This document shows, piece by piece, positions 11,856-56,510 of a DNA stretch of 64,000 bases. Below the pieces are notes generated by a model that saw only the letters and a program-made list of their open reading frames with translations, was not told the origin of the DNA and searched no databases. The DNA comes from an uncultured bacterium (GTDB taxonomy: Bacteria; Patescibacteriota; Gracilibacteria; Absconditabacterales; Absconditicoccaceae): assembly GCA_946405785.1 (NCBI GenBank), contig CAMJIH010000002.1:950-64949 (forward strand). Reading direction: 5' to 3'. Numbering within the stretch: the stretch's first letter is position 1; every line of letters begins with the position of its first letter. The translations under genes and the position numbers were made by a program.

Positions 11856-13877
11856 ATGGGAATTGTAAACAAAAACAAAGCTAAAAAAATGGTATTTAAA
11901 GGGGCTGTATTACTTTTTTGAATTTTATGAATACTAACTCCTACATTTACAGAAGTAGAAGCAGCTTCGAAATTGAGTGCTAAAGATTGGCTTAATTATA
12001 TTGTTGAAATAGCATGAGCTTACATGGACCAATATTTTTCAATGGTTCATTTTAACGTAGCATGAAATGACTTTTGATGATGAATCCTTTGGTTGCCAGT
12101 GGAACAAATTTCAGGTGATGCTGTTGAAATTAGTATTCCTAATGGTGTGGATGAGAATGGGGATCCATTATACGATTCCAGATTTTGTTCATCAAAAGTA
12201 AGAGGTTTTTACTGGAATTCTCAAAGATGAGATAATAGATTATGGCCAATGGATGAAAAAACACATCAATGGCTTAAAGATGTGCATACAGATATAGAGA
12301 AGTATGCATGATTAAATATAACATGATGATGGTATACAACTTGTAGTGAAGATAAAGAAACAGTAGAATTAAATGCATTTCTTGAAGCTAACTGAGTATC
12401 AATAACACTTTCAGATATAGCAAATATTATTACAGAATTATCTAATTATCCAAAAGAACAGTGGGAGGAAGCAATTGAACCTATTATAGCTGATAAACAT
12501 ATTAATAATCATGAAGCTGAATTAAGAATTAAAAATGTGATCCTTTCATGAGTATCACTTAAGATAGATCCATACGGTATTTATTGAAAAATTACTCATG
12601 ATTATAGATGGGAACATATGGATCTTATTGCATGAGCACATTATGATGTAGAACAAAATAGAATCTCTACATGAAATTTAACATGTAGCTTGCAGAGATT
12701 AAGTAATAACTATCCATTTTGATATTTATATGATGATTATTGACATATTTGAATTATCTGAGCTAGAATCGATTCAAAATATATTCAATGAACAGAAAAG
12801 AATAGAGCAGTAGTAACTAGTTTCCATACTTGATTACAAGCATTACTAGATTCTTGAGTTTGTATGAATGAAATTTTCTGATTTGATTGAAAGAATATGA
12901 ATCTAAATGCAAAAACCCAAGGTAGAACATGATATCAAATTCCTTGACGAAGTGATAGTGATGCATGGAATACTATTTGAAAAATATTATCGAATTTCCT
13001 AACTGCTTGAAATGGAACTGCCAGAACTACAGTCTTTAGTCTATGAATTAAGGGTATTGTATGATTGACTGATGAAGTAAGAGATAATCAAAAAGAATAT
13101 TTTGAGAATAACCAATTACAATCAACTCTTATGCTAAGAACAGAAACTTCTATTGCAAATGTTATAAATGTTGCGAGCAGAAATGCTGAAAGATTATGTA
13201 GAGGTAAATGGGATGAATTCAAAAATTGAGTTCCTTCTTGGGAATTTACGTCTAAAATTGTTTGTCTATCATGAGATGGAGCTAAAAATAACGTACCAAC
13301 TCCTAAACAAATATCATGAAAAACAATTGTTGTTAGAAATGCTGATTTTATAATAAATATGCATAATGGTAGTTATCAATCAAATAAAGATTCTATAGAT
13401 CTCTTTATTGATAGAGGAAACTTATTGCTTGATACTGAAGGTATAGATACAGGTAGCTTGGTATCATTTGATGATTATTGATATTTATCTAATGATATTA
13501 ATAGTGATATTAAAGCTATGTTCTTAAAAGGAACCTTTATTATTAACGGATTGATGCTCGGTGGTACAAGTTGAACAGGAACTATTGATAATAGACTATA
13601 TATGCATGGAAAACTTATTTCATATAATACTATAACAGTTCCTACTACAATTAGAAAGAATACTATTGAAAAAATAATAAATAGACAGTTATGGACTGCA
13701 CCAGAACAAACATCATTAACAAAATTATTCTCATGGTGATGTAATCCTGTAACTTGAGAAGGTAGTGATGGAACTTCATGTAAGTGAAGCTCTGCTGTTG
13801 GAAAGGAATCTCAATTAGTAGATAAGGCATTCTGATTAATAGATATGGATTTAGAAAGTGAATTAATTAAGAATTAA
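11856..13877 (+). CDS. Secreted or membrane-anchored hypothetical protein, 673 aa
   Basis: The N-terminal signal-like segment is KKMVFKGAVLLFGILGILTPTFTEVEAAS. The frame is continuous with many TGA codons and ends in TAA at 13875-13877. I recognise no domain. Confidence 0.6.
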
Positions 13878-17226: not shown

Positions 17227-20200
17227 ATGGATTTTTTATTTTATTCATATTTTTTGATGAAGGCAAAAAAAATATTTATGTGAATTGTGTTCGCAGTACT
17301 TGTTATTATTGGAATTGAATGAATCCAATCATTTTGGTGAGAACACACTTATTATCAAGGGATGTTACAATCTCGGAAAAATCGAGGACTTATTGCTAGT
17401 TCATTAGCATGTTGAATAATTCCTCTTTTGTACATGAGAAAGAAAAAGGTTTCATTAATGAGCTTAGTACTAAGTACATGATGAGCATTATCATTGTTTA
17501 TGATCCTTCATGAGTGGATACAATGAAATCTACTTACATTATTTTCTGCAGTGCCATTAGTTTTTAATACATTAGTATTATATTCATTAGCAATTCTTTT
17601 TATTTTTGCCGTATTCTCTTTGTGAGAATTTATCTCAAGAAAATTAAAACTATTTAGCACAATAAGATGGCAAGAAACATTCTTAACTTTTTGAATTGGT
17701 TTAGTAACTTTCTTAGTACTTATCCAAATAATTGAATGAATTTGAGTTCTTTATAGTGCAATAAGTTGTTTGCTTCTTTTATGATTGGTCATCCTATGAT
17801 GGTTTAATAGAAAAAAACTTGTTGAGTATAAAGATTCATTATTGTCTATTATTGAAAATGCTAAAGATTTAAAAATAAGTTCAAATGTTTGGTGGATTTT
17901 TAGTATATTAATAGTTGTTTCATTTTGATATTATTTCTTTAATTTCTCTCATTCATTTATTCCATATTCAACAGCATGGGATGCTAATCATGAATACATG
18001 TATTTACCAAAAGTTGTATCAGAAAATAATTGAATCCTATGGTGAAATATTTGACCAGCATCAGGTATGTTGGGACTTTGGCATACATATATAGCATACT
18101 TCTTCTCTGTATGAACAGTAATTTCTTCAGTATTAAATATAGCTAAAGATACAGTAGCTGTAAATCTTAATGCATTAAGTTGAGTATTAGTTCTTCTTTT
18201 TGGACTTTGAGCATTAAGTGAAGCATTAGTTCTTTTCAAAAAAAGAGAATCAGATGAAGAAAATCCTGTCCCATTCTTAATATGATGGACACTTATTTTG
18301 ATGTGGTTAACAAGTTGAATGTGAGCATTCTTATTATTCGTAGATAATAAGACTGACATGTGAGTATTGGCATTATCATTATTGGCAATTCTTTCAGGAT
18401 TTATATATCTAAACTATTTTAATAAGAGAGGTACTCATATAGAAGGATCTCAAAGTGTTAAATATCTAATAGTTTCAGCATTATTATTCTCTTTTGCGAT
18501 AACAGCAAAAATAACAGCAGCTATTGATGCTATTATCTTTGTTTTGATTATGATTTGATTCTGTCTTAATACAACAACTCTTATTTGAGTCTGAATAATG
18601 GTACTTTGATTTATGTGAATAATTCAGCCTTTGTTTACATTTGCGTTTATTACAAAAGAATTATGACTATTAATTCTAGCCGTATGAGGAGTTATTACAA
18701 TAATATGATTAATCCGTTGATTGATTAATAGAACAGATTCTTTTTCTAAGAGGTTAAAACAAATAATTATTTGGTGAATAACATTAATAATTTCATTATT
18801 TATATTCAAAGGTCCATGGGTTGCTATTGGGCAAATGACTAGATGATCATTTAATTTTTCACAGTTTGTAAGATCTACAATCTTGGCAAAGAATACGCCA
18901 ACAATTGAAAACAGATTATTATTAGCTCAAGTAACTTGAGATGATGAAAGTTTGAAGACTCAAGCTATTATTGATGAAAAAGCTTTTGAAGAAGAAACTA
19001 AAGATATATCATACCAACAATGTTTATTAGAAAAATATGATAAAGAAGACTTGTCTTCAACAATGCAAAAAGCTCCAGGAAATTCTCTTAGTGAAGATGT
19101 TGGAAGATATGTATGATTTGGATGGAGAGAATTTAAAAAGACAAAAATTTGATGAGCTGTACTAAAGCTTTTGTTCCGAAAAAATAATTCATGTTATTGA
19201 TGGGATTCTGATTGAAAAATCCTATGTGAAAACGCAGATTTGATAGAGAAACAGAATATAAAAAAGTTAGAAAAATTAGCAGAAGAATCTCTTGATAAAG
19301 ATGGAAAAGCTTACCAACTTGTGAGAGATCTTATTGAATGAAATACTTCGTGAGATGATTTAAGAGATTATTATACAGCAATTGAAACTTACTATAAGGA
19401 ACATAGTATTAAGACAACAGATTCAAGTGTATATATACCATACAGATATATTGTTCCTCTTAATGTAGTATTTAATTGGTCATTACAAAATCATAGTAGC
19501 TATTATACAGATATTGGTCTCATTTGGTTGGCTGTATTTGTCATTATGCTTCTAGGATTACTATATGCAATTTGTACATATGATAAAAAAAGAAAACAAT
19601 TATTAATACTTTGATTCTCAACTATCATTGGTTGGATGATTTGGTGGGCAATAGCATGAGGTATTGTATGGTATTGATTATGATTGATTATATGGTCAAC
19701 ATTTGTTGTTGCAGTATTCTTCCAAGAATGGCATCTTAAGGAAGAAGAAAGCCTTCGTTTATGGGTAGGATGAGTTATTGCGTTATTCGCTTTATGAATG
19801 CTAATGCAATGGGTATTAAATGCTTCAAGAATAGCATCTCAATCAAGTTCAGGACCTTTCTGATGGTATAAATCAAATGTTGGTGAAAGACAAGAAATAA
19901 CAAAAGATTTAGAATTTACTAATACAAAAGTTTATAACTATAATTCTGAAGATGTATTCGGTCTACAATTTGGACAATATCAACCATTCTTGAATGCAGT
20001 AAAATGAAGAGCTGATAATGAATGAATCTTAATTGCGTGAACATATGTCCAATATTTCTTAGATAATTGGAATAATATTATATCAGATAATATGTTAAAT
20101 CACTTATGGGAACAAGTATCTGATTTTAATAGCTGTAGATGATACCAAAGATTAAAAAATGAAAACATAAAGTATCTTATTATTGATCCAAATATCTGAA

Positions 20201-20805
20201 CCGTAGGTAGAGCTGGTGAATGAAATGAATCTTTATTTTATAGATTCTTTGCAAGATTATCAGCAGACGAACAAAAAATCCAAACACATGGTGCAATAAC
20301 AATGCTTGTTAAGATGGCTCAAGAATGATATATAGAATTGGTATATACAAATAATATTGGAGCAAAATATGCATTTGAGCTTTCTGATGCTGAACTTATT
20401 TCTCATTTTGGATTCAAATCAAAGGAAGATTTAATTCTTTTGAGATCAAAATTAGCTGTTATTAAATTCTTCTATTCAGAACAAGAATTATTAGAAAAAC
20501 TATTTGTTCTTTTCCAAGAAAGAATTCTTAACTGACAATGAGTTTCAGATATTGCAAGCATGATAGGAAAGGATGTTGATTCTCAAAAACTTCTTCCAAT
20601 TATTAAAAAACTTCTTGAAAATCAAGATACTTCTTGAATAAAAAATCTTACACAAGATGAAAAATATGTGGTTTCTCAATACGCTGGTCTTTATAGAATG
20701 ATGAAAACTCCAGCTCAAAGAGAACAAGCTGAAAATGTTTTAACACAATTGTTCCAAAACTCAATATTTGGTTCTTCTCAAGTAGTTGGTCTTAAATTGA
20801 AATAA
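17227..20805 (+). CDS. Large polytopic membrane protein, 1192 aa, function unknown
   Basis: The frame links track ORFs 18367-18558 and 20338-20535. There are many hydrophobic spans in the first ~450 aa and around residues 760-860, separated by soluble regions. Ends in TAA at 20803-20805. Confidence 0.7.
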
Positions 20806-38167: not shown

Positions 38168-38202
38168 CAAAAAAACGTATAAAGAACAATGCCTTTATAC
38201 GT
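38168..38202 (-). terminator. Strong rho-independent terminator closing the PKD/pilin operon
   Basis: Perfect 10-bp stem acgtataaag / ctttatacgt. The minus-strand T-run of 7 ends 2 nt before the methyltransferase ATG. Confidence 0.7.
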
Positions 38203-38230
38203 TTCTCTTATTTTGTTACAAGTTGATATA

Positions 38231-39163
38231 TTATGAATTTCCTCAGAATTCAGCGAATATTTGATAGAGAATGAATAGGAAGAAGAAGAGAGCAATAATA
38301 GCTAATACAATATTAATAAGAGTATTCTTTGCTTTCTTGAAATTCTCTCATTTTCATCAATCAATAACGAGAAGATATCCAGAGTAGATAATCATAAAAA
38401 CAATAACAATACCACTAAGATATGCGAGGAATTTTGCAACATTGACGATAAAATTTCAAGCTTCTGTTGCAAAATCAGTTAGTGCTGCAATATAGTATAA
38501 GAAATCTACAACTTTAATAGCAATTAAAGCAAATATTACATTACCCAAATTCTTAATAAGTTTTTTCCCATTTCAACTTTCTCATGTTGAAGGATTCATA
38601 AGTTGGAATCAAATAGCAACAATATAAATAATTGCAATAAAGAATGCAGCTCATTTTAAGATACTTAGAATCCAGAATGGCAATCATGTACTAGATGTTA
38701 GGTTATCTGCTACTAAATCAGTTTTGTTGAGATTACTAATATCAAACATAGTTCAGAATATCCGCATTGATCAAAAGAAAAGAAATGATCATATAAGAAC
38801 ATATAGTAAGTTAGTAACGGCTGCTTTTAATTTCTCAGGTTTACCCATACTAGTTATTAATAGAATTGCTGAATAAAGTATGTAAATGAATACAAGAACC
38901 ATACCAGCATATTTTAGGACGTTCCATAATGCTCATCATTTTTTATCAGAACTTTTAGGGAAAAATAACGCCTCAACATTTTTCTTAAATGTATTACCGG
39001 CTTCAACTTTTCAAATATCAAAGAGATGTTCATCTTCTCATTTAGTTAATGAACTTGCATAAGAATCATATATTGGGGCATTACTTACAGCAAAGCTGTT
39101 AAAAGAGATAAAACCTCATAAGAAGATTAGGAATACTAGTATAAATCTTTTTATTAATTTCAT
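38231..39163 (-). CDS. Membrane protein with three tandem TrbC/VirB2-like pilin hairpin modules, 310 aa
   Basis: A signal peptide is followed by three repeats of TM - short basic loop (GKPEKLKAA; GNGKKLIKN; GKGENFKKAKN) - TM. Confidence 0.55.
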
Positions 39164-39194
39164 TGTTTTGTTTATAAATAGTAAAGAATATTGT

Positions 39195-39680
39195 CTAAGA
39201 AAAAAAGTAATTAATAATAGCTGTTACTATTGCAATGACTGCATAGAATCCTGACATTAATATTATTCATAAAATGATATATTTAATATTTTCTTTTGCA
39301 TCATTAATTTTTTTACCAGTAACGAGCAAAAATCAATTCCAAGCCAATAAAATAGTAGCTCATACCATTCAAATATAAATTGTTCGTTGAATATATGGAG
39401 TAATTCCATTTTGATCGTTTGCTAATCGGGCAAATGTGCTAGCTATTTGATATTCAGGAGTAATCTTTGCACCACCAACATCTTCATTATTAATGGAATT
39501 TAATCTAGTGTCTTGTATCTGAGTTGCTTGATCTTTGTTAGCTAGATCAGCAACGTTTTTTACAATATCAGTTGGAGTACTTCCAAAAGCTGCCCAAGCT
39601 TTTGGTGCTTCAGCATTTGTGAAAAATGGAATAGTTAGTAGCCCTATTAAGAATAAACATAATTTGATTTTTGTTTTCAT
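39195..39680 (-). CDS. TrbC/VirB2-like (T4SS-type) pilin-fold protein, 161 aa
   Basis: Track ORF 39369-39680 continues through TGA. The signal peptide is MKTKIKLCLFLIGLLTIPFFTNAEA. The C-terminal hairpin is GATILLAWNGFLLVTGKKINDAKENIKYIILGIILMSG. Confidence 0.6.
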
Positions 39681-39709
39681 TGTTTATATGACAATACTAT
39701 ATAAAACGA

Positions 39710-42700
39710 TTAATCTTCTTCATTTTCATACCTTTCTCTAAGTTTAGCTTTAATAGCAAAGGCTGAAATAGCTCAAGCAAAGACAAATATTACAATACCA
39801 AGAATCCATAATAGAACTTTAACAATAGTAGGCATTCAGGTACTTTTTGATATATCTTCTTTTTGAACTGTAACAGTAGTAGGTTCAATCTTTACATCAG
39901 GATTATCTTTGTTATATTGACCACAAATTTTTAATAAAATATCATATTCTTCACCTATCTTACAAATATTATTTTTAACAATATTTTCATAATCATCATT
40001 AGCAATCTCATTTTCTCAAATGTTATTTGAAGGTACTGCATTCTTTGAAATGAGATCATCTATTTTTACTAATAAAGCAGCTCTTTGTCATTTTGTATCT
40101 CCACTAGTTTCTCAATCTAACATCTCAAATTCATGGAATAAGTCATAAGTATCTTGTTTTAATTTTTGAGGTAATAATGAGAGTATTTCTTCCTTTGAAA
40201 CTTCATAAGGAGTACCTCAAAGTGCAGAAATTGTCGCATGATCTTGAAGACTACTAATTAAGTCATTTAATTTTTCTTCTTGAGATGTAGTAAGTTTTAC
40301 TCTATTCTCTGCTTTGAATTGTTCTATTTGCAAAACATCTCATCTTCGTGCATTTTTATCACCATTTGCAATATCATTTCTAAGCGTTACGATTAAACTT
40401 CTAAGTGTACCATTAGCAATACTAGAACTATCATCAATAGTTTGAATTAATTCTTTTGCAAGATCGTATTTTTGTCTTGTTTCTTCATCAAAATTTGTTT
40501 CGTAATCTGCAAATTCAACAATAAAGTCTTTATGTTGTAATGATGTATCTGTAGATTTTTGATAATAAATTCTTCCAACAGCGGATTCATAACTTGGAGT
40601 ATAAGTTTGATTAGTCATTCTATTGCAGCCAAAGTCTTTATCGTTTTTAGCATCTCAATCACTAGAGGAATCAAAATTTATATCACTATCAATGTAACAA
40701 GTGGTAATGTCACTAGTTGCTTTAACATAAAACATAACTTGATTATTGAGCTGTTTTGAAAGGAATATAGAAGGAACTCAATTCTCAAAACTAACTTCAG
40801 GAAGAGTAACCAAGAAAATTCAGTCATCAATAGGTTGTAAAGTTGTTCTATCAGTTACAGTTACTTGTTGTTCACTTACTGCTTCATTTCCATTACTATC
40901 CTTTGCTTTTATTGTGACAGTATAAGTTCAACTTTTTGGATAAGTAACTTTAAATGCAGAATCAAGGGTCTTATTGATATAATTTTGGTTTCATTTTTCA
41001 CATTGTTCCTTATCAAGACAAATCTCTCTTTCAATAATATTACCGAGACTTATATCTTTAAAAATAACACTTCTACCAATTGCAGTATACATTAGACCTG
41101 GTCTAAGTCATGTTTTTACTACAATAGGTGTTCATTCTCAAATACCTCTATAATCTCTATAGATAACTGAAGCTATAGGAGTATATGGAGATTCTGTAGG
41201 ACTTGCTTTTGAGTAGGAGTATTTTACACGATCGTTCTTTGTTGTTAAATCATATTCTCAGTCTCAATCAAAGTCAATTTGTATAGTCCTTTCCTTTTCA
41301 AAATCGGATCTATCTGAAATAATTTTACTGATAATATCAAATGTTACTTCTTCTCCAACTTCAACATTAATTTTGTCTGATTTTAATGTTACAATAGGAA
41401 TATCAGGTTGCTTTGTGTCAGGAGGGAACATAATAATTGGTCCATTTCCTAAAATATCTTCACTTGATTTATTTCCATCGTCATTATCAAACATTTTTAC
41501 TCAAAACATAAATTCTCCTGCTTGTCTTGGTACAGAGAAAAATGCATAAGGAATTGTTCAAGGTGTAATTTTAGTATCTAAAAGTTTGTTAGGATTGGAT
41601 TTTGGATAATAATACCATTTGAAATAAGAAATAGTTCAATCACTATCTATAGCTCCATCTGCAGTAACTTTTATTATAATAGGATCGATACTTGAAGAGA
41701 AGATATCATTGGTACTTTTTGATTGTTGAAATCAAATACCCATTTCATTTCCATATTGAGGATAACTAAGAGTCAAATTATTTAGTTTAGGTAATGCATT
41801 AACTACTTTAAACCAAATTCTTTCTTTGGTTACTTTTCATAATGAGGTATCTTCTAGTGTATAATCAACGTATTGACATCATAAACTATTGAATTTATGA
41901 GTGAATTTTTGTGATTGTAGAATTTCATCGTTTTTAAGCTGAAAATAGTATTTTAGATTATTTTTACTTCCTTGAGCATTCACAGATTGACTTGTATTAA
42001 TTGAGAATGATGCTTGTCTATCAACTCTAAAAGCATCATATTTAGCTGTTCATGTTCAATTACTTTCAGCTACAACACAAACATCATTTTGTTTTACAAC
42101 ATGATTTGAACCATCACGAACTTCATATCATATAATAGGGCTATCTTTTTCTCAAATAAATACCTTTTCTGTTACTTCATTAGAATCATCATTATCTCCT
42201 ATAACTTTAACTTTTACGTTATAACTTCAAACTTTATCATATTTTACTTCCCATTTATTATCTGATGTTGTTCTTGCTGGAGTTCAGTTCCCAAAATCCC
42301 ATTCATAATTTATAACAGGAACGTTAGTTTGAACCTTAAAAAGAACAGATTCTCACCAAATAGTGGCTTTTGGATTTATGGTTAATTCTGGTCTAAGAAT
42401 TGATTCAACATTAATTTCTTTTGTAATCTCTTCTGTCTGTCAATAATTATCTGTTACTTTTAATGTAACTTTATGTTTTCATTTTTCATTAAATAATACA
42501 GTGATTAGTCTATTATCTTCTTCTGTTTCAGTTATTTCTTTAGCATCTGGATTTGAGAAATTCCATTCATAAGAAAGTACATCATATCAGTTTGAAGTAT
42601 CAATATCTGTTGATGCACTAGCATCTAAAATAAATTCTGATGGGTATTTCCATTTATTAGTTGGAGTGATTGAAAATTGTGGAGTAGGTGGTGTTGAATC

Positions 42701-43996
42701 AACATAAACATTAACAACATCACTATTCTTTAATCACATTTCATCTTCAACAGTAAGATTTACTGTATAATTTCCTGGTTTTTTAAACTGTCTATTAATT
42801 TGTTTTCATTGAAGAGTATCCAATTTTGTTCATTCACTATCAAAGATTTCCCAAGTATAGAATTTTAATCTAGATGTTAATGAATAAGATGCATTTGCTG
42901 AAAACGTATAGGTTGTAGATGTATTTCATTTATCAGGATTCTGTTGAACAACAGCAACAGGATCTGAAACTGCAAGTGTATATGTTTCAGAAACAACATT
43001 ATGTTCATTATCTGTTACAGCTAAAGTAATACTGTAATCTCCTTGTCATGGAAGTGGTAGGTTGATGTAACTAGGAGATCAATCACCAGATTTTGTCCAT
43101 TTAAATCAGTCTCTTGATGTAACATTCCATGTATAACTTAAGATTTCCCTTCCTCAAAGTGGTGTTGTTGAACTACCATCAAAGAGAACTCACTTATTTG
43201 CTTCTTGAATTCCAATTTTTGAAGCTTTATGTTTTTGCATTTTTTTACCATTAGCATAAACGCTTACTGTAGCAGATTTAGGACTTACGGTAACTGTAAT
43301 ATTTTTGGTACCATCAAAGATTCATGCATTAGAACTTCTAACAGTACAGTGAACAATATAAGTTCATGCTTCAGAGAACTGATATTTTACAACAGGTCAT
43401 ATTCAAATGGTTTTATCTACACCATCAATATCCCTATAATACCAGAAATACTTGTTTGAAGGGATTGTTTCATTTGATGGATCTTTACTACCTCTTGCAT
43501 CAAATGTAACTGTAAGTGGAGCTGGTCAACTACTAGGACTTGCTGTAGCTGCAACTTTAACAGTATAATCTTTATCAATTGTAGTCTTTAATTTTGTAAG
43601 AGGCTTTTTACATTTATCATTATATTCTTCGAAATTTGAAGAATTTGGTTCTTTCGCCATAATTGCTGTAGTCTTTTTACATTGTTCGTATATTAATAAG
43701 AATTCATAATCATCTTGTGGAAAATATTTAAAAACCCTATTCATAATGCTTAACTGTTCAGCATAGGTTGCGCTTCAGTTAATTTGCCCAATTTTAGTTG
43801 TTGCATCAACATCAACAAAAATTCACGCTAGTTTGTTCCAATCATCTTCAACCATATAGTTTGCATAATAAGAGCTTGGGACGTTAGAGGAATTTCTTGA
43901 TGTTGCAAAAATATCTCATCATCACAAAATGAGAAAAGCTAATAAGAAAAGCGTAATGCATGAGGATATTCTTTTTATTTTTGTATTCCAAGTCAT
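39710..43996 (-). CDS. Giant PKD-repeat surface protein with a C-terminal TM anchor, 1428 aa
   Basis: One minus-strand frame links track ORFs 40340-40618, 41264-41494 and 43526-43744. It has an N-terminal signal. At least five PKD-like units are visible (PLTVTFDARGS..YFWYY..GTYIVHCTV; LSYTWNV..GDYSITLAVTDN; FYTWEI..GNYTVNLTVED; LSYEWNF..KHKVTLKVTDN; INYEWDFGNG..GSYNVKVKV). The C-terminal TM is VLLWILGIVIFVFAGAISAFAI. Confidence 0.8.
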
Positions 43997-44029
43997 AACT
44001 GAAAAAATCATAATAAAAGACTTAAGATA

Positions 44030-44058
44030 AGTATATTTTTTATTTCAAAAATTTGCAA
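44030..44058 (-). promoter_or_regulatory. Sigma70-type promoter of the PKD/pilin operon
   Basis: On the minus strand: TTGCAA, 17 nt spacer, TATACT. The -35 lies inside the perfect palindrome AAATTTGCAAATTT. Confidence 0.55.
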
Positions 44059-44108: not shown

Positions 44109-44147
44109 AAAAAATAAAAAATCTCTTCTTTTTCGAGAAGAAGAGAT
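44109..44147 (-). terminator. Rho-independent terminator of the upstream gene
   Basis: 10-bp stem atctcttctt / aagaagagat, followed on the minus strand by TTTTTATTTTTT. Confidence 0.7.
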
Positions 44148-44176
44148 TTATGATAATAGATTTTTTTTATCTCAAA

Positions 44177-46121: not shown

Positions 46122-48080
46122 TTATTTCATAAAAATATATCTCATTATGTTTTCTAATTCTTGTCTTCTTTCTGCAAATTTTTCATCAAGTAGCCAATCA
46201 TAAAAGTAAGCATTACAAAAATAAGCGACATAAGATAATCATTTTTTCTCTGTAGGGACATAGGTCTCAATCGCTCATTCTTTTAGAATAAAAATATTCT
46301 GATCATAGAGTTTTTCAATTCATTTGAGAATAGCTTTATGTTTTTTAGGATTGAAAGTAAGAATTGCTGTTACAAGTCTATTATAGTAGTCATTATATCT
46401 TTTTTCGTTTCTATTCTCATTTCTGTTTTTCTTTGCTTGTTGATTTGCCATGAGATAATATTTGTTAATTTCTGCCCTTGAGAAGAATCAAAAATCAACT
46501 GTATTATCCCAATCTCCGATAAAATAGTTCTTTATATTAAATTTTCTCAAAAATTTTCTCCAAGCGTTAAAAGATCCTTTACCATTAATATTAATTATTT
46601 CATAATCACGAATCTTTTCTTTTCGTTCAGGTTGGGTCTTTAAATAGTTAAGGTAGAAACTGAAAAAGTATGCATCAGTATCTCATTCTACTAAAATAAT
46701 TTTATCGACAAAGAATATTTTTGAAAGATTTTCAAACCTTAGCATGTGCATAAGAGTAGCATCATCATAATCTACAGTAATTCTTGGAGCAGAAATTAAT
46801 GAATTTTGGTTTTTATCTTTATATACTCTATAAACTGATGTAAGATTTTTTTCATTGATAAATATTCATGAGTTTGTAGAAAAAATAAATTGAGTTCATA
46901 GTTGCTCACTAATATTTTCACAAACTTCAGCTAGTTCTTTTTGATATAGAGGGTGAATATGTAATTCAGGTTCTTTTATAATAATAAATCCATCAGTAAG
47001 ATCATTTCAATAAAGTCCAAAAATGATTGTTAAAAGAGACTTCTCTCAATCACTAAGATCATCAAAATAAGAGATTCTTTCTTGTTGATCAGTCATGTAA
47101 AGACTTATAGTACCATTGATATATTCAACCTTTAAATGTCTGCCTAAATATTTTTTAATCATATAACTTAAACTTTTGAAAAATGTTGAACTTTTTAATT
47201 TTTCATCAATAGTTTCCTTTGATATATCTTTTACTTCTCAATTAGTTAATTGGGCTTGTGAGAAATTCTCTAATATGCTTCGAATTTTATATACACATTC
47301 AGTATATCATATAAGACTATTCCTACTATATTCTAAATCATTGATAATTTTTGATGGATCAACGAAATTATCAAATTTAACTTCAGTTCTATGCGTATTT
47401 AGAATAGCAAAAGTTTTTTTCAATAGATACCAACTTCTTTCTTCTGGTTTTTTTTCATAAGTATTAAATATTGTAATTATAATTTGTAATAACTTTTGAT
47501 ATCTAATACATGAAAGAATGAATTGTTCATGCTCAGTTAAACATGATTCATCAATATTGAAATCTTGTGTTTTTTCATCAAAACTTGCCTTTAGCTTAAT
47601 ACTATGGTGTTCCTCAAGGAATGTCTCGAGTTTATGAGGAGGAAACTCAATATTAAACTTTGAATATTTAGAAATAAGATGATTAATTTTAGAATAATAT
47701 TTACAAACAAATCAGATATTTTCAAAATCAAGATTTGATAATTCCAGAGATATTTCTAATTTAGCTGGTTGATCAGGAGTTTGGTTGTTTGTTTGGAGCT
47801 TTTTAGTATGGTTAGGTCTTTCTTGGATAGTTTTTCTAGTTTTTATATTCTCTTTAGCGTATTCTTCATGGTAAGTATAATCATAGATTAGAGTAGCAAA
47901 AAATTCTTCCAGGATTTTTATAAAATTACTTTTTCAAGAAGCATTATTACCGATAAATATTTTTACTCATTGATATCAATCTTGACCAAAAAAAGAAATT
48001 GGAGCTGATTCTTTGAAATCATGCTCATTAAGGTAAGGAAAACTTAAGAGATTTGATATTTTTACTTCTTTTATTTGCAT
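46122..48080 (-). CDS. OLD-family ATP-dependent endonuclease (ABC-type ATPase fused to TOPRIM), 652 aa
   Basis: Motifs: Walker A IGNNASGKSNF; ABC signature-like SDGEKSLL; Walker B FIIIKEPELHIHP; TOPRIM ILVEGDTDAYFF followed by GDWD. It contains about 14 TGA=Gly codons. Confidence 0.75.
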
Positions 48081-48116
48081 CCTTTTAACAACCAATTAAA
48101 AAAACTCTTTAGCTTA

Positions 48117-51672: not shown

Positions 51673-52785
51673 ATGGAAATGGAACAATACGAAGTCTATC
51701 AAAAAGAGCCAAAACAGTATGTTGCATACCTTAACGAGCTAATGCTTGAAAAAAATGCAACAGATATGTATTTGACGTATAATGAACCTCCAACATTAAG
51801 AATTATGGAGGAAATTCATAGACAAGATTTGCCTAAACTAGATGATACAATGCTAAATAAAATTGCATTGGCAATGATGAATAAAACAGGTCTTGATTAC
51901 TTTGAAAAGTATTGAGCACTAGATCTTTGAGTTTGATTTAAATGAAGAAGATATAGAGTGAATATTTCAAGACAAAGAGGTCATGTTATGATCGTATCAA
52001 GATTGTTGAGAAATACAATTCCGACACTAAATGCTCTTGCATTACCACCAATATTCAAACAATTAGCTCATAGAGAAAACGGTATCGTATTCTTAGCATG
52101 ACCAACATGATCATGAAAATCAACAACTTTGGCTGCTGTTATTGAAGAAATTAATACTACTAAGAAAAAACATATTCTTACCATTGAAGATCCGATCGAA
52201 TATATCTTTGAACCAAAGGAGAGTATTATTGATCAAAAAGAATTAGGTAAAGATGTGTCTTCATTCTCAGATGCCATGAAGTATGCTCTTAGACAAAGAC
52301 CAGATGTAATCCTTTTCTGAGAAATTAGAGACTTGGAGAGTATTAGAAATGCTATTTTGCTTTCAGAAACATGACACTTGGTATTAACTACAGTGCATGC
52401 GAGATCTGCAGAGCAGGCTTTAAACAAAATTATTTGATCATTCCCATCTGAAGAACAAAGTCATATTAGAACACAGTTATCAGAGAATATGGCAGCAATC
52501 GTTGTACAGAAATTGTTAAAAAGAATTGATAAACCAGGATTAGTTCTTTGACAAGAAATTCTTATTAATACAACAGCTGTAACAAATATTATTAGAGAAA
52601 ATAAATTAAATCAATTAAAGAGTGTAATGTATACAAACAGAGTTTCTGGATGAATGCAACTTATGGAAGAAAGTCTTCTTACTCTTTTCGAAACAAAGAA
52701 GATTAGTCTTGAACAAGCACTTGAAGCAGCAAATGATCCTTCTTATATTAAGAGAGAATTGATTAATAAATGATATCTTAAATAA
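51673..52785 (+). CDS. pilT: Type IV pilus retraction ATPase (twitching motility protein)
   Basis: The Walker A GPTGSGKST is encoded tga-cca-aca-tga-tca-tga-aaa-tca-aca (52099-52125). Other motifs: TIEDPIE, the Walker B/Asp box RQRPDVILFGEIRD, the His box TGHLVLTTVHA, and a C-terminal PilT-type region. Product is 370 aa. Confidence 0.88.
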
Positions 52786-52808
52786 TAACAAACGAAATAA
52801 CAAATATA

Positions 52809-52832
52809 AAAGCTGCAATTGCAGCTTTTTTT
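52809..52832 (+). terminator. Rho-independent terminator after pilT
   Basis: Palindrome agctgcaattgcagct followed by tttttt. Confidence 0.7.
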
Positions 52833-52937
52833 AATAATTATTTTTTTATACATGAATACGTGATTTTTTATTAAGTCAATATAAAATATGCTCAATATGG
52901 AAGGAATTAATAAAATATTAAATTTAAATGGCTCTTT

Positions 52938-52966
52938 TTTGACTTTTGAAAAAATTTTTTATATAA
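52938..52966 (+). promoter_or_regulatory. Sigma70-type promoter
   Basis: TTGACT, 17 nt spacer, TATAAT. Confidence 0.6.
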
Positions 52967-53002
52967 TTGTATTGAAGACTTTTAGTTTATATTGAAACGA
53001 GT

Positions 53003-54934
53003 ATGGCAATTGCTGATGAAAATAACGGAATCATGTGAGATGATCCTAAGGCAAATCAATTAGCCGATAATAATTCTGCATGAGATTATCCTACTTTTGA
53101 GGATGAGAATACAAATACAGAAACTCCTTCTCCCGTTTCTGATGTACCGCAAGAAGATAATCCTATGCAAGAACCAGCTGCTGAACCTCTTCCAACTGAT
53201 GGAATAGATGCTACACAACAGTGAATGTGACCAATGAAAATTACTGAAGAAGCATTAGCAGAGATGAAAGAACAGGAAAAGGCAGAGCAGGAAGCTTTGG
53301 CTGCTAGCCAAACAATGGATTATCAACTTTCAGAAGATCCAATAGTAAATGATGATTCCTACAGTTATGATAATAATAGTGAAGATACATCAAATGAAAC
53401 AGAGAATTTGATGGATGAATGAAATTCTCTTTGATCATATAGTTTTTGAGAAGAAAGAGTAAAAGTGAAAAGATACAACACATGATTTGTTTTATCTGTA
53501 TTAGGATTAATCGTTTTTGGATGACTAGCATATGTTGTTTATATGTTCTATCAATACCTTGAATATAAATCAATGCCAGTGATTCCATCTGATAAAGAAA
53601 AAACAGTGACAACGGTATCAGATAAGTATGATGAATACGGACAAAAATTAGGATTATTTGATCTTGAAACATATAAGGTTATCTATCTTGAAAACGAAGC
53701 ATATAAAGTTGATGATTTGCTAAGTGATTCAACATTAAACTTTAATCAGAAAAAAGATGATCTTCAAAGATCATTACTTAGAATGGGAAATGAAATTAGC
53801 AGAATTAAAAGAGAAACAAAAGTTTTGAGAGAGAAAATGAATAAAGAATGATTTTTCCCTCCTGAGTTAGTTTGAATTTTGGAAGCTGATAATGCTATTA
53901 GTTCAATTCAAAGAAGTCTTATATCTCTTGAAGTAGTTAAGTTCTCAAGTGCGTTAAGAGTTTTCTCATTAATGGATGATATTGTAAAGGAATTGTCAGA
54001 TAATTTCGATATTACAAAATGAACTATTAGAGAAAAACTTGAAGAATTAATTAATAGATGAGAACAAGATGTAGAGTATTATCTTAATGTATGTTATAAT
54101 AATCCATATGAAACAGAAGAATGTATCAATATTAACGACTTTGATAAATATTATAAAACTATTAAACAAGAAGAAGATTTTGATACTACATTCTTTAAAA
54201 AATTGATGAAGTATATAAATACTCAAATCGAATATAATGAGATGCCAAGTTTCTCAATTACATTTAACAGTTTTAATGGAAAGAGTAATAGTATTACATT
54301 CTCTGTTGAAGTTAATACAACAGTTGAAGATGAATTGGCATTATCTCAACAAGGAATAAAGAGTCCACATATCTTTATTATATCAGAATTAATTAAATTA
54401 CTTAAACTATCTACATTCATCGGAGGTAAACAAATTGATGCAAAGAATGTTAAGGTTGTACCTAAGAATATAACTATTGCATGAAGACAATTTAAAGTAA
54501 ATAACTCTGTAAATACTTATACATTGCCAATTCAAAAAACAACAGAAAGAGAAATCTTCGATTTCATTGAAACATATTCTTTGAACCTTGAAGATACGGA
54601 ATTTGATATGACATGATTCTTGATGTCTGGATTTGATATGTCCGGATTTGATATGTCATGATTCATGATGTCTGGATTTGATATGTCCGGATTCGATATG
54701 TCATGATTTATGATGTCTTGATTTGATATGTCTGGATTCGATATGACATGATTCATGATGTCTGGATTTGATATGTCTTGAGCTGTAATGACATGAGAGA
54801 CTATGACATGAGAAGTGTTATCATGAGATAATCAATATACATGAGATATCGTAGCTGATACTGGCTTAGAAATAACATATAGCTGAGAAGTTAGCAGCGA
54901 AGAAGCATGATTTATTACTGATGCACAAATTTAA
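53003..54934 (+). CDS. Bitopic membrane protein, 643 aa; acidic N-terminus, coiled coil, PilN/PilO-like ectodomain (tentative) and an (M-S/T-G-F-D/M)n C-terminal tail
   Basis: The frame links track ORFs 53234, 53543 and 54203. The TM span is FVLSVLGLIVFGGLAYVVYMFY. The repeat tail is at 54602-54796. Ends in TAA at 54932-54934. Confidence 0.7.
54602..54796 (+). repeat. In-frame 15-nt (5-aa) tandem repeat encoding F-D/M-M-S/T-G, about 12 units, with a 45-nt higher-order period
   Basis: Units read ttt gat atg tct gga, ttt gat atg tcc gga, ttc atg atg tct gga and so on. The Gly position is written either gga or tga. Degenerate units continue to about 54845. Confidence 0.85.
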
Positions 54935-54965
54935 AATAAATACTTTATATATTGAATAAAAAACA

Positions 54966-56510
54966 ATGGAAGAAGAAAAGAAAGAATTAACCCTTTCGGA
55001 TCAAGTAAAAGATGTCTGGGGAAAAATTGCTTGAGTTCTTTGAAAGTGATGAAATGCTGAAAAAGAATTCACTTTCTGAGTAAGTAAAGAAGCTTATATC
55101 ATTGCTCTGATATTATTCATTGCATCTGTTTGAGCTTTTGTTGTAGCAGTGTATTATACATGGTTAAAGTATGAAGAAATTACTTTAAGAACTCCAGAAT
55201 TGGTAGAACTTAGTAATTATAATCTTCCAGATTTCTCAAGAGAAATGAGTGCTGAAGGGGTGGATATGCCTTCAAATATACAATGAATGGTAGATTTATA
55301 CGATAAATCAATGCAAGATAAAAAAAGAATTGAAGGAGAATTAAACTTTAAAACAAGTATTTATAACGAATTCTTAAGAAATTTCTTGTTGCCATCTTTG
55401 AATATTTGGAAAGATCCATACACAAAAGAAATTGATATATCTGTGATGTGAAAAAAATATTTGGATAATAACCCATACCAAGACATTTCATTATTATCTC
55501 AATGGAGTTCCATTATTAGAGATAGTTGAAAAGAAGTATGATTAAATGAGGTAACAGATATGAAAATCTGAGAGATTTCAGAAGATAAAGAATGACATTT
55601 TAAAATCCCAATTACAGTGTCATTTAAATCAAATTCAAAAAGAGCATTCTTGCTTTTGGTTGATAAGTTATCATTAACTTCAAATGTTAGTAATATCTGA
55701 TTGTTAAACGACTTTATGTACTATTTATTTAATACAATTAGAGAACAAAAAGCAGAAGAAATTCAAGCAATTCTTGAAGAATACAACTCAGAAGATTCAA
55801 CAAAGATGGAAAGACCAGAAGGAACTGATGATAAATATTTTGAAAACATGATTATATCTCGTTACTTATACTACTGGATTCTATGAGATGATGAAGAACC
55901 TTGTCGTTTAATAGATGAAGAAGTAATTGATGCAACAGTAAAAAAGAGTATTGTATGTAACGATAAGGATCCAGAAGTATGTTACTTTGATTTTAGAGAT
56001 AAATATAGAAACATTCCTGAATTAGCATATTCTATTTGAATTGAATCAGTTGTTAATAAGCCTTTGGCATTGAAAAGATTTATACAAGAACTACCTCCAT
56101 TGATAGCAATTGAATCATTTACATTTGATAAAGAAAGAAGTGAAAATGGTGGTCTATCTTTAATCCAGAATACTGATTATATAGGACAGGTTCATTTTAA
56201 TATCTATGGTAGATGAATATCAGAGGCTGAAACAAAAGAGATAACAAGGAAGTTAGCAGAGGATTGTTTCGGATCATGAACAAGTAATGATTTGGAATTA
56301 AAGAATGTTTTGGCTCCAGTTCAGACAGCAATCGAGCAAATCGATGAATTATGACAAAACAGTGTCTGAAGAATGACAAATCTTATTGAGTTAAGAGAAA
56401 TATTGAACGAAGATGCTAAGACATATTCAAAGCTCTCTCCATATAATAAAATGGTTAGAAAATTCGAATATTATAGAATGCTTAAAAATATATGAGGTAT
56501 TTGTATTTAA
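54966..56510 (+). CDS. Bitopic membrane protein, 514 aa; PilO-like (tentative)
   Basis: The frame contains track ORF 55701-55886. The TM span is YIIALILFIASVGAFVVAVYYTW. A segment HFKIPITVSFKSNSKRAFLLLVDKLSL resembles the PilO ferredoxin-like fold. Ends in TAA at 56508-56510. Confidence 0.65.

What the first reader, a model, noticed from the sequence alone, without database searches (positions are those of the whole stretch)
38168..44058. Self-contained operon: giant PKD-repeat surface protein plus a single and a triple TrbC/VirB2-like pilin-module protein
A good promoter (44030-44058) and a perfect 10-bp terminator (38168-38202) bracket three minus-strand genes:
- A 1428-aa protein with a signal peptide, at least five PKD-like units (including the hallmark YEWDFGNG), a long non-repeat region and a C-terminal TM anchor.
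- A 161-aa protein with the topology of conjugative T4SS pilins: signal peptide, then TM - basic loop - TM.
- A 310-aa protein that repeats that hairpin three times in one polypeptide.
No VirB4, VirB6 or VirD4 gene, and no type IV pilus pilin, lies next to them in this window. Pilin-fold proteins co-transcribed with a huge adhesin-like protein suggest a cell-surface attachment or contact structure. That would fit the epibiotic or predatory lifestyle inferred for this group. A triple-fused pilin module is unusual. The functional reading is inference.
Basis: partly seen in the sequence, partly recalled or inferred. Interest (0 to 1): 0.7.

Follow-up and report, generated by a model that had tools for sequence, protein, structure and literature searches.

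The report
Fused triple pilin with PKD giant
In an SR1 (Absconditabacteria) genome that reads UGA as glycine, three co-transcribed genes encode a 1428-residue surface protein built of PKD repeats, a small conjugation-type pilin-like protein, and a protein made of three such pilin units fused in a row; the same partnership recurs, sometimes as a gene fusion, in other ultra-small bacteria, so it may be their unrecognised host-contact structure.

Summary
Three minus-strand genes lie between two terminator-type hairpins.

- **gA** (39710-43996, 1428 aa): signal peptide, at least 7 PKD/Ig units, C-terminal membrane anchor.
- **gB** (161 aa): signal peptide, conserved 70-aa domain, one TM-loop-TM hairpin.
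- **gC** (310 aa): signal peptide plus three such hairpins.

gC passes Pfam's T4SS_pilin (PF18895) cut-off. gB alone does not, but 16 of 19 orthologues match. The gB hairpin profile matches each gC module at 89-95% probability, against at most 7% for reversed controls.

The gB-gC pair sits together in 26 of 28 SR1-type reference genomes. gA adjoins it in one clade only.

The new result concerns other Patescibacteria. Proteins with 2-8 fused hairpins lie next to PKD giants in 5 of 6 loci sampled. In 4 of those loci a pilin hairpin is fused to a PKD protein, one of which aligns collinearly with gA.

No VirB4, VirD4 or VirB6 was found in the window or beside any locus. The cited promoter is no better than chance. 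Structure models were low-confidence and fold searches were uninformative.

Best reading: a pilin-plus-adhesin surface module of the Patescibacterial T4SS-like apparatus. Its function is inferred. It is a new variant of a known kind.

The parts
44119..44149 (-). Terminator-type hairpin ending the upstream 283-aa gene. It marks the upstream boundary of the unit.
   Evidence: 12-bp stem followed by a T-run; sequence read.
44030..44058 (-). Promoter-like TTGCAA-17-TATACT in the 165-nt intergenic region. It is plausible by position only.
   Evidence: A 9/12 match. The region has 43 such matches against 42.2 expected from shuffles, so the match is not significant.
39710..43996 (-). gA: a 1428-aa Sec-type exported protein (1433 aa from an earlier ATG at 44011). 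It has a conserved N-terminal domain, at least 7 PKD/Ig-like units, about 330 aa with no family match, a C-terminal TM and a charged tail.
   Evidence: It contains 52 in-frame UGA (Gly) codons.
40859..43558 (-). PKD/Ig-like repeat array of gA (residues 152-1051 in 1433-aa numbering).
   Evidence: Pfam PKD_4 1.6e-36 and PKD 5.7e-36. Units lie at 152-239, 261-346, 350-436, 441-534, 540-618, 765-853 and 1002-1051, with two weak units in addition. The array aligns collinearly with a pilin-fused giant from another lineage.
39740..39844 (-). C-terminal TM anchor of gA (residues 1390-1424). It is preceded by a conserved S-G-[MFL]-P-[TS] motif and followed by KAK-LRE and an acidic tail.
   Evidence: Hydropathy. 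Conserved in 18 orthologues. No LPxTG.
39195..39680 (-). gB: a 161-aa protein with a signal peptide, a conserved hydrophilic domain of about 70 aa, and one pilin-type TM-loop-TM hairpin.
39198..39404 (-). Single hairpin module of gB (residues 93-161).
   Evidence: Module HMM E = 7e-28. hhalign to gC modules gives 93, 89 and 95%.
38231..39163 (-). gC: a 310-aa protein with a signal peptide, an N-terminal region of about 50 aa, and three tandem pilin-type hairpin modules.
   Evidence: PF18895 at 31.5 bits against a cut-off of 26.6. Six TMs after the signal segment. 111 full-length homologue clusters. AlphaFold secondary structure.
38729..38944 (-). gC module 1 (residues 74-145), loop SMGKPEKLK.
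38468..38713 (-). gC module 2 (residues 151-232), loop NPSTGESGNGKKLIKN.
38243..38479 (-). gC module 3 (residues 229-307), loop DGGKGENFKKAKN. This module gives the best Pfam match.
38173..38204 (-). Intrinsic-terminator-type hairpin with a U-run after gC. The next gene's ATG (an RlmL-like methyltransferase) follows immediately.
   Evidence: dG -16.9 kcal/mol, z -5.7.

Best explanation
The locus encodes a three-part cell-envelope module.

**Shown.**
- gB and gC belong to the VirB2/TrbC-related 'T4SS_pilin' family that is widespread in Patescibacteria.
- gB carries one pilin hairpin behind a conserved 70-aa extracellular domain.
- gC is a covalent concatenation of three hairpins.
- gA is a Sec-exported, membrane-anchored array of PKD/Ig domains.
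- The three genes are tightly packed between two terminator-type hairpins.
- The pilin-PKD partnership recurs across Patescibacterial classes, including as direct pilin-PKD fusion proteins.

**Inferred.** After Sec export and signal-peptide cleavage, the hairpins sit in the cytoplasmic membrane with their Lys-rich loops facing the cytoplasm. They then oligomerise into the core of a pilus or contact structure. The assembly machine would be the chromosomal, monoderm-type (MPF-FATA-like) T4SS reported for this phylum, encoded elsewhere in the genome. gA associates with that core and supplies the host-binding surface. It would thus be the adhesin that has so far been reported missing from the Patescibacterial T4SS. 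The structure would serve attachment to, or transfer with, the bacterial host or prey.
For: **Family membership.**
- gC scores 31.5 bits on PF18895, above the 26.6 cut-off, and gives a sub-threshold TrbC hit.
- 49 of 56 gC orthologues and 16 of 19 gB orthologues match PF18895. 22 of 56 gC orthologues match TrbC/VirB2.

**Module homology.**
- gB hairpin against gC modules 1, 2 and 3: 93, 89 and 95%.
- Module 1 against 3: 92%. Module 2 against 3: 50%.
- Reversed controls: at most 7%.

**Topology.** Hydropathy and two AlphaFold models give three helical hairpins with basic loops.

**Conservation.**
- 111 full-length gC clusters.
- The gB-gC pair is adjacent in 26 of 28 species-level loci. The trio is adjacent in 16, and probably 17.
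- gA-like genes have at least 120 collinear orthologue clusters.

**Independent recurrence of pilin-PKD linkage outside SR1.**
- L033: 8-hairpin protein, then a pilin, then a 383-aa pilin+PKD fusion, then a 718-aa PKD protein.
- L035: 3-hairpin protein, then a 1456-aa pilin+PKD protein.
- L036: 2- and 3-hairpin proteins, then a 1691-aa pilin+PKD protein.
- L038: pilins including a 4-hairpin protein, then a 993-aa PKD protein.
- L039: two 3-hairpin proteins, then a 1630-aa pilin+PKD protein, then an 872-aa PKD protein.
- gA residues 162-1044 align collinearly with the pilin-fused giant of L035 (E = 8e-47).

**Literature.**
- VirB4 is present in 2,417 of 3,035 Patescibacterial assemblies.
- VirB2-like pilins are found in 1,948 assemblies, and arrays of 2-11 pilin genes in 383.
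- 'No adhesins ... were detected' (PMC12102498).
- T4SS pilin genes are essential for epibiotic growth of Ca. Southlakia epibionticum (PMC10633639).
- Vampirococcus has giant PKD-bearing membrane proteins proposed for host attachment (PMC8080830).
Against: - No VirB4, VirD4 or VirB6 family was seen in the window, or in the precomputed Pfam gene lists of the loci that have them. I could not test whether this genome has a T4SS core at all.
- Neither profile searches nor fold searches link the modules to any solved VirB2 or TraA pilin. The models have low confidence (pTM 0.33 and 0.42).
- The window's gB alone is below the Pfam threshold (16 bits). TrbC/VirB2 itself is below threshold for gC (19.8 bits against 27.9).
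- In more distant Absconditabacteria, gA is not next to the pair.
- gA and the fused giants end in a TM anchor. This fits a membrane-tethered assembly better than a freely extruded pilus subunit.
- gA's constant length and high conservation are unlike typical fast-evolving adhesins.
- No expression or localisation data exist.
Confidence: 0.45

Rival explanations
1. The hairpins form a membrane platform, not a pilus. They never leave the cytoplasmic membrane. They oligomerise, possibly as a closed ring helped by the 3- to 8-fold fusions, into a scaffold that holds the PKD giant and other surface proteins. This would be independent of any T4SS ATPase.
For: - gA and the pilin-fused giants carry a C-terminal TM plus a charged tail, so the fused giants are anchored at both ends.
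- Covalent concatenation of up to 8 modules is easier to reconcile with a fixed-stoichiometry membrane assembly than with a helical filament of monomers.
- No VirB4 lies near any sampled locus.
- VirB6 homologues are reported absent in Gracilibacteria (PMC12102498), so a six-TM protein could fill a polytopic platform role.
Against: - The modules belong to a family related to true conjugative pilins.
- Pilin genes of this family are part of an essential T4SS cluster in Saccharibacteria.
- In F-type pili both pilin termini face outward (my own knowledge), so linking successive subunits is geometrically possible.
- Nothing tested here distinguishes a ring from a filament.
Confidence: 0.3
2. The co-location has no physical meaning. 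gA is a general surface-coat or S-layer-like protein. gB and gC are ordinary T4SS pilin paralogues. They share an operon in one clade only because envelope genes are co-regulated.
For: - gA is separated from the pair in distant Absconditabacteria.
- gA is unusually conserved and constant in length, as expected of a structural coat protein.
- PKD proteins are common in these genomes.
Against: - Independent adjacency in 5 of 6 loci from other Patescibacterial lineages.
- Pilin-PKD fusion proteins in 4 of those 6 loci.
- One fusion is collinear with gA over about 880 residues.
- A domain fusion of this kind is classic evidence for physical or functional coupling.
Confidence: 0.15
3. The proteins are not pilin-related at all. 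The hits reflect the composition of hydrophobic hairpins, and gB and gC are unrelated small membrane proteins such as transporter or holin-like components.
For: - There is no match to solved pilins.
- TM helices are prone to spurious profile matches.
- Some weak hits are to unrelated membrane families.
Against: - gC passes the curated Pfam gathering threshold.
- Reversed-sequence controls collapse to at most 7%.
- A standard-code relative passes the NCBIfam cut-off for a Mycoplasma ICE pilin-like conjugal transfer protein, with three separate stretches (54 bits against 40).
- NCBI names one relative 'pilin'.
Confidence: 0.05

Closest known systems
VirB2/TrbC/TraA conjugative (T4SS) pilins, Pfam PF04956
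   Same: Sec-type signal peptide followed by two hydrophobic helices joined by a short basic loop. There are sub-threshold but recurrent PF04956 hits: 22 of 56 gC orthologues.
   Different: - Below the PF04956 gathering score (19.8 bits against 27.9).
- Three modules are fused in one chain.
- The host is a monoderm-type organism.
- No adjacent VirB4, VirB6 or VirD4.
- No sequence or fold match to solved pilins.
Patescibacterial VirB2-like pilin arrays (PF18895), for example the essential pilin series in the T4SS cluster of Ca. Southlakia epibionticum and the 'Sec-secreted array' of TM7x
   Same: The same Pfam family. Several divergent paralogous modules sit side by side. The signal peptides are Sec-type. 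The organisms share an epibiotic or predatory lifestyle.
   Different: - The described arrays are separate small genes, often beside virB4.
- Here the modules are fused into one polypeptide (three here, 2-8 elsewhere).
- They are partnered with or fused to PKD giants.
- They are not near virB4 in any locus sampled.
- Neither feature is mentioned in the survey paper.
Mbov_0395-family pilin-like conjugal transfer protein of Mycoplasma ICEs (NCBIfam NF045849)
   Same: A monoderm MPF-FATA context. A standard-code three-hairpin relative passes the model's cut-off with three stretches.
   Different: The window's gC scores only 16.8 bits against a cut-off of 40. The ICE protein is a single 80-residue module on a mobile element.
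Surface adhesins of Gram-positive T4SSs (PrgB type) and VirB5-type pilus-tip adhesins
   Same: The proposed role: a large surface protein that makes target-cell contact for a T4SS.
   Different: There is no homology. gA is a PKD/Ig array with a C-terminal TM anchor and no LPxTG. The survey of Patescibacteria found no PrgB-like adhesins. This comparison is functional only.
Pam pili of CPR bacteria (PamA/PamB; preprint 10.64898/2026.03.03.709456)
   Same: A CPR-specific surface filament implicated in host contact, built from Ig-like folds.
   Different: - Pam pilins assemble by donor-strand exchange with chaperone-usher-like factors.
- They occur mainly in Saccharimonadia and Microgenomatia.
- gA's only hit to a Pam-system model (PamR) is E = 0.011 over 25 residues, against a 300-bit cut-off.
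Giant PKD-bearing membrane proteins of Ca. Vampirococcus lugosii
   Same: A gA-like 1396-aa protein lies one gene away from the Vampirococcus gC homologue (L031). The published description of these giants as candidates for host recognition matches the reading here.
   Different: That paper does not connect the giants with T4SS-type pilins and does not mention multi-hairpin pilins.

Membership tests
Pfam PF18895 T4SS_pilin | Whole-protein score at or above the curated gathering score (26.6 bits) | tested here: met
   gC scores 31.5 bits, with the best stretch at 233-300. 49 of 56 orthologues match at E <= 0.01.
Pfam PF18895 T4SS_pilin (gB) | Whole-protein score at or above 26.6 bits for the 161-aa protein | tested here: inconclusive
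   The window's gB scores 16 bits, E = 0.013. However, 16 of 19 orthologues match (best 4.9e-7), and its hairpin profile aligns to the gC modules at 89-95%.
Pfam PF04956 TrbC/VirB2 pilin | Score at or above the gathering score (27.9 bits) | tested here: not met
   gC scores 19.8 bits, E = 9e-4. 22 of 56 orthologues match at E <= 0.01, best 8e-6.
VirB2-type conjugative pilin (functional class) | Signal peptide followed by two hydrophobic helices joined by a short basic loop | tested here: met
   Hydropathy. Loops read directly from the sequence. AlphaFold secondary structure.
VirB2-type conjugative pilin (functional class) | Encoded with, or in a genome that has, a VirB4 ATPase and other T4SS core genes | tested here: not met
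   None was found in the 64-kb window, or in the precomputed Pfam gene lists of loci flanking homologues. Presence elsewhere in the genome could not be tested.
VirB2-type conjugative pilin (functional class) | Polymerises into an extracellular pilus (with phospholipid) | not testable with these tools
   This needs cryo-EM, cryo-ET or biochemistry. The monomer models have pTM 0.33 and 0.42.
VirB2-type conjugative pilin (functional class) | Sequence or fold similarity to a solved pilin (TraA, VirB2, TrbC) | tested here: not met
   PDB profile searches gave no true hit. Foldseek against PDB gave nothing at E <= 0.001. Simple hairpins and low-confidence models limit the power of this test.
PKD domain proteins (PF00801 / PF18911) | Repeated PKD domains above the gathering score | tested here: met
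   124.6 and 122.8 bits, with 5-6 stretches. Seven confident units were mapped.
NCBIfam NF045849 Mbov_0395 pilin-like conjugal transfer protein | Score at or above the 40-bit cut-off | tested here: not met
   gC scores 16.8 bits. A distant standard-code relative, L035_344, does pass at 54.1 bits.
Type IV pilus (T4P) pilins | Class-III signal peptide, G/[FM][TS]L[IV]E | tested here: not met
   The motif occurs in none of the six frames of the window. The N-termini of gB and gC are ordinary Sec-type.
Pam pilus system of CPR | Match to the one Pam-system model that appeared in the NCBIfam scan (PamR) | tested here: not met
   The only hit is PamR at E = 0.011 and 14.7 bits, against a 300-bit cut-off, over 25 residues of gA.
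Sortase (LPXTG) anchored surface proteins | An LPXTG-type motif before the C-terminal TM and basic tail | tested here: not met
   gA has no LPxTG. The conserved motif is S-G-[MFL]-P-[TS]. Whether that is a sorting signal is unknown.

The most novel reading that the evidence does not exclude
Covalently concatenated VirB2-like pilins (3 modules here, up to 8 elsewhere), together with PKD-repeat giants, form a previously unrecognised, Patescibacteria-wide host-contact organelle. In this reading the PKD protein is the 'missing' adhesin of the phylum's repurposed T4SS. The poly-pilin builds a pilus or channel with fixed subunit stoichiometry, an assembly principle I know of in no conjugative-type pilus (my own knowledge).
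Probability: 0.3. Interest if true: 0.78.

Novelty: new variant of a known kind. Interest (0 to 1): 0.62.

Why it matters
Patescibacteria (CPR) are a large share of bacterial diversity and live attached to other microbes. How they make contact and extract resources is largely unknown.

Their T4SS-like system is essential in the one genetically tractable species, yet it lacks a coupling protein, a relaxase and any recognised adhesin. A conserved module that ties T4SS-type pilin units to giant PKD arrays, sometimes as one polypeptide, gives a concrete candidate for the contact-making part of that machine.

The candidate can be tested in two kinds of system: the co-cultures that exist for Absconditabacteria (Absconditicoccus, Vampirococcus), and genetically tractable Saccharibacteria.

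Fused poly-pilins would also constrain how such pili or platforms assemble.

There is a practical lesson too. Public protein sets translate these genomes with the wrong code (UGA read as Trp). That measurably weakens family detection, from 31.5 to 18 bits here.

Tried and rejected
1. **Table-11 translation.** It fragments all three genes, so I re-derived every protein under code 25.
2. **Exact-sequence look-up of the window's gC.** Its code-4 twin, P0001, was not on record.
3. **Fold searches of both AlphaFold models against PDB.** These returned only generic helical bundles (best E 3.6 and 0.089). They are uninformative, because pTM was 0.33 and 0.42 and a hairpin is a trivial fold.
4. **PDB sequence-profile searches.** I searched with the full family and with a 30-sequence single-hairpin alignment. 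The results were spurious GPCR and designed 'Pizza' repeat matches, with no pilin.
5. **Pam pilus membership.** Rejected.
6. **Sortase or T4P signals.** Absent.
7. **Promoter evidence.** Rejected as non-significant.
8. **Presence of VirB4 in SR1 genomes.**
   - The supplementary tables of PMC12102498 held no SR1 entries.
   - Other papers gave no SR1-specific statement.
   - The question is unresolved.
9. **Other pilin modules in the window or beside the pair.** No other window ORF, and no neighbour of the pair in SR1-type loci, carries a pilin module. For example, the 381-aa and 439-aa membrane proteins upstream of the pair in L003 do not.
10. **Folding the window's gB.** I did not use database copies, because they are code-4 mistranslations with Trp in the TM helices.

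Full report
**Genetic code and gene models.** Under table 11 the region breaks into short ORFs. Treating TGA as sense raises the total in ORFs of at least 100 aa from 2,603 to 23,134 aa across the window. At alignment columns where the window's three genes have TGA, orthologues use GGN 748 times, TGA 388 times, other codons 325 times and TGG never. So UGA is Gly (code 25), as in SR1/Gracilibacteria. GC content is about 29%.

The genes, all on the minus strand:
- gA: 39710-44011, 1433 aa from the first ATG. Orthologue N-termini favour the second ATG at 43996, giving 1428 aa.
- gB: 39195-39680, 161 aa.
- gC: 38231-39163, 310 aa.

The gaps between them are 29 and 31 nt, with no hairpin.

**Expression signals.** A terminator-type hairpin at 44119-44149 ends the upstream gene. 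A strong hairpin with a U-run at 38173-38204 follows gC; it has dG -16.9 kcal/mol, z -5.7, and none of 200 shuffles folds as well. The promoter-like TTGCAA-17-TATACT at 44030-44058 exists. However, 9/12 matches are as common in shuffled sequence (43 found, 42.2 expected), so only its position speaks for it. The ATG of the next gene, an RlmL-like methyltransferase, follows the terminator directly, so some read-through is possible.

**The giant protein (gA).** PKD_4 and PKD score 1.6e-36 and 5.7e-36. Iterative mapping places PKD/Ig-like units at 152-239, 261-346, 350-436, 441-534, 540-618, 765-853 and 1002-1051, with two weak units between them. Hydropathy gives an N-terminal signal segment and a TM at 1390-1424.

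The C-terminus is the best-conserved part of the tail. It has an S-G-[MFL]-P-[TS] motif, the TM helix, then KAK-LRE and acidic residues, in 18 orthologues. There is no LPxTG.

gA has at least 120 full-length orthologue clusters of 1370-1443 aa, collinear down to 37% identity. Where named, they come from SR1, Absconditabacteria or Gracilibacteria. Identity within the close clade is 60-80% across the PKD region. That constancy is unusual for an adhesin.

**The pilin-like proteins (gB and gC).** gC passes Pfam's T4SS_pilin cut-off (31.5 bits against 26.6) and gives a sub-threshold TrbC/VirB2 hit (19.8 bits). gB alone gives 16 bits.

At family level:
- 49 of 56 gC orthologues match PF18895.
- 16 of 19 gB orthologues match PF18895.
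- 22 of 56 gC orthologues match TrbC.

gC has six TM segments after the signal segment, forming three hairpins with Lys-rich loops.

Profile-profile comparison of the family alignments gives:
- module 1 against 3: 92.5%
- module 2 against 3: 50%
- module 1 against 2: 12.6%
- the gB hairpin against modules 1, 2 and 3: 93, 89 and 95%, all in register
- reversed-sequence controls: at most 7%

The description 'single module plus triple module' is therefore sound, although module 2 is the most divergent.

gB also has a conserved 70-aa hydrophilic domain before its hairpin.

AlphaFold2 on the gC family gave pLDDT 64 and pTM 0.33. That run was led by P0001, which is the window's own gene translated with code 4: all 18 differences are G/W at UGA. 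A run on a correctly translated standard-code relative, P0235, gave pLDDT 68 and pTM 0.42. Both show three long helix-loop-helix hairpins.

Fold searches and PDB profile searches found no pilin. The link to characterised pilins therefore rests on curated family models only.

**Conservation and synteny in SR1.** gC has 111 homologue clusters, nearly all full length at 300-325 aa. A scan of species-representative genomes returned 28 loci. All those with an informative label are SR1/Absconditabacteria-type, including oral taxon HOT-345, an Absconditicoccaceae MAG and Ca. Vampirococcus lugosii.

With code-25 ORF calling:
- A gB-like gene directly precedes the gC-like gene in 26 of 28 loci.
- Every gC orthologue has exactly three modules, and every gB orthologue has one.
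- The gA-like giant directly precedes the pair in the closer clade, where gC identity is at least about 47%: 16 loci, plus one probably cut by a contig end.
- In Vampirococcus it lies one gene away on the other strand.
- It is absent next to the pair in the remaining distant loci.

The reciprocal test agrees. Two distant gA orthologues are not flanked by pilin genes.

**Beyond SR1: the main new result.** An exhaustive profile search of 1.84 billion representative proteins found 789 clusters at E <= 1e-3. They include standard-code Patescibacterial proteins with multiple hairpins:
- 3 hairpins: many, for example P0235 and P0250, the latter named 'pilin [Patescibacteria group bacterium]'
- 4 hairpins: P0228
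- 5 hairpins: P0251
- 6 hairpins: P0216
- 8 hairpins: P0189, 820 aa

The contexts of six such proteins were as follows:

| Locus | Gene order |
|---|---|
| L033 | 8-hairpin protein, 155-aa pilin, 383-aa pilin+PKD fusion, 718-aa PKD protein |
| L035 | 3-hairpin protein, 1456-aa pilin+PKD |
| L036 | 2-hairpin and 3-hairpin proteins, 1691-aa pilin+PKD |
| L037 | pilin array including the 6-hairpin protein; no PKD on the contig |
| L038 | pilins including a 4-hairpin protein, 993-aa PKD protein |
| L039 | two 3-hairpin proteins, 1630-aa pilin+PKD, 872-aa PKD protein |

So 5 of 6 loci have an adjacent PKD giant, and 4 of 6 have a pilin-PKD fusion.

I verified the fusion architecture directly. L035_1456 has a signal peptide, one hairpin (88-157), about 1300 aa of PKD array, and a C-terminal hydrophobic segment with a basic tail. 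gA residues 162-1044 align collinearly with residues 432-1391 of that protein (E = 8e-47).

A domain fusion that recurs across lineages is strong comparative evidence that pilin modules and PKD arrays work together physically.

**T4SS machinery.** Pfam scans covered 20 window ORFs: the three operon genes and 17 others. The 17 included every ORF of 500 aa or more that is not an obvious aminoacyl-tRNA synthetase or RNase Y. None was VirB4, VirD4 or VirB6. The only secretion-type ATPase is a PilT-like T2SSE protein at 51673-52785.

None of the precomputed Pfam gene lists shows a VirB4-type family either.

I could not scan whole genomes. The literature reports the following (PMC12102498):
- VirB4 is present in 2,417 of 3,035 Patescibacterial assemblies.
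- VirB4 is present in every class examined, including Gracilibacteria.
- Other T4SS components in Gracilibacteria are rarely linked to virB4.
- No VirB6 was detected in Gracilibacteria.

**Comparison with what is known.** VirB2-like pilins of PF18895 and PF04956, and arrays of 2-11 separate pilin genes, are already described in Patescibacteria. They are essential in Ca. Southlakia epibionticum. The same survey states that no adhesins were detected, and it mentions neither fused pilins nor PKD partners.

Full-text searches for VirB2 + PKD + Patescibacteria, and for PF18895, found nothing further.

The newly described Pam pilus is a different system, built of Ig-fold pilins by donor-strand exchange. 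It is not matched here.

The Vampirococcus paper noted giant PKD-bearing membrane proteins as attachment candidates, but without any pilin link.

**Interpretation.** The following are shown:
- the three-gene unit
- its domain content and topology
- the true triplication of a T4SS-pilin module
- conservation of the gB-gC pair across the SR1 group
- a pilin-PKD partnership that recurs across classes and is sometimes fused

The following are inferred:
- the modules form the core of a pilus or contact structure assembled by a T4SS-like machine encoded elsewhere
- gA is its adhesive component

The main rival is a non-extruded membrane platform that anchors the PKD array. It is favoured by the C-terminal TM anchors and by the covalent multi-module fusions. 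Nothing available here separates the two.

I rate the finding as a new variant of a known kind. The pilin family and PKD proteins are known. The fused poly-pilin architecture and its systematic coupling to PKD giants were not found in the library I could search.

Noticed in passing
whole window; gC 38231-39163: Public protein databases hold these genes translated with code 4 (UGA read as Trp). P0001 is the window's gC with 18 G-to-W substitutions. This lowers its PF18895 score from 31.5 to 18 bits, below threshold, and probably degrades structure prediction.
   Followed up: yes
46122-48095 (-): A 657-aa OLD-family nuclease (AAA_21/AAA_15 ATPase plus an OLD-like TOPRIM domain). It is a candidate stand-alone anti-phage defence gene, two genes upstream of the operon.
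   Followed up: no
51673-56510 (+): A PilT-like T2SSE ATPase (370 aa) is followed by two ORFs with no Pfam match, of 655 and 514 aa, each with one TM. The 655-aa ORF ends in a (M-S/T-G-F-D/M)n pentapeptide array encoded by a 15-nt tandem repeat, x10.4, at 54623-54778. These may be type IV pilus-associated proteins.
   Followed up: partly
39740-39860 (-), gA C-terminus: A conserved S-G-[MFL]-P-[TS] motif lies immediately before the C-terminal TM helix, followed by KAK-LRE and an acidic tail, in 18 orthologues. This three-part layout resembles protein-sorting signals (LPXTG, PEP-CTERM or GlyGly-CTERM type), but it matches no known motif.
   Followed up: partly
2514-7181 (+), 11856-13877 (+), 17227-20805 (+): Three large ORFs have no Pfam family above the curated cut-off. 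One is a 1555-aa highly charged, apparently coiled-coil protein with one TM. One is a 673-aa secreted protein. One is a 1192-aa protein with at least 13 TM segments, whose only hit is a weak sub-threshold match to DUF1129.
   Followed up: no
L003/L027 (GCA_964501605.1), upstream of the gB-gC pair: In one distant SR1-type lineage the pair is preceded by a 381-aa (3 TM) protein and a 439-aa (8 TM) protein instead of gA. Neither has a Pfam hit or a pilin module. A PilB-like T2SSE ATPase is encoded divergently.
   Followed up: partly
L012/L013, between the gA-like and gB-like genes: An extra 241-aa ORF with 2 TM segments, matching the C-terminal part of gA, is inserted between the giant gene and the small pilin gene in two related genomes. 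It may be a partial duplication.
   Followed up: no
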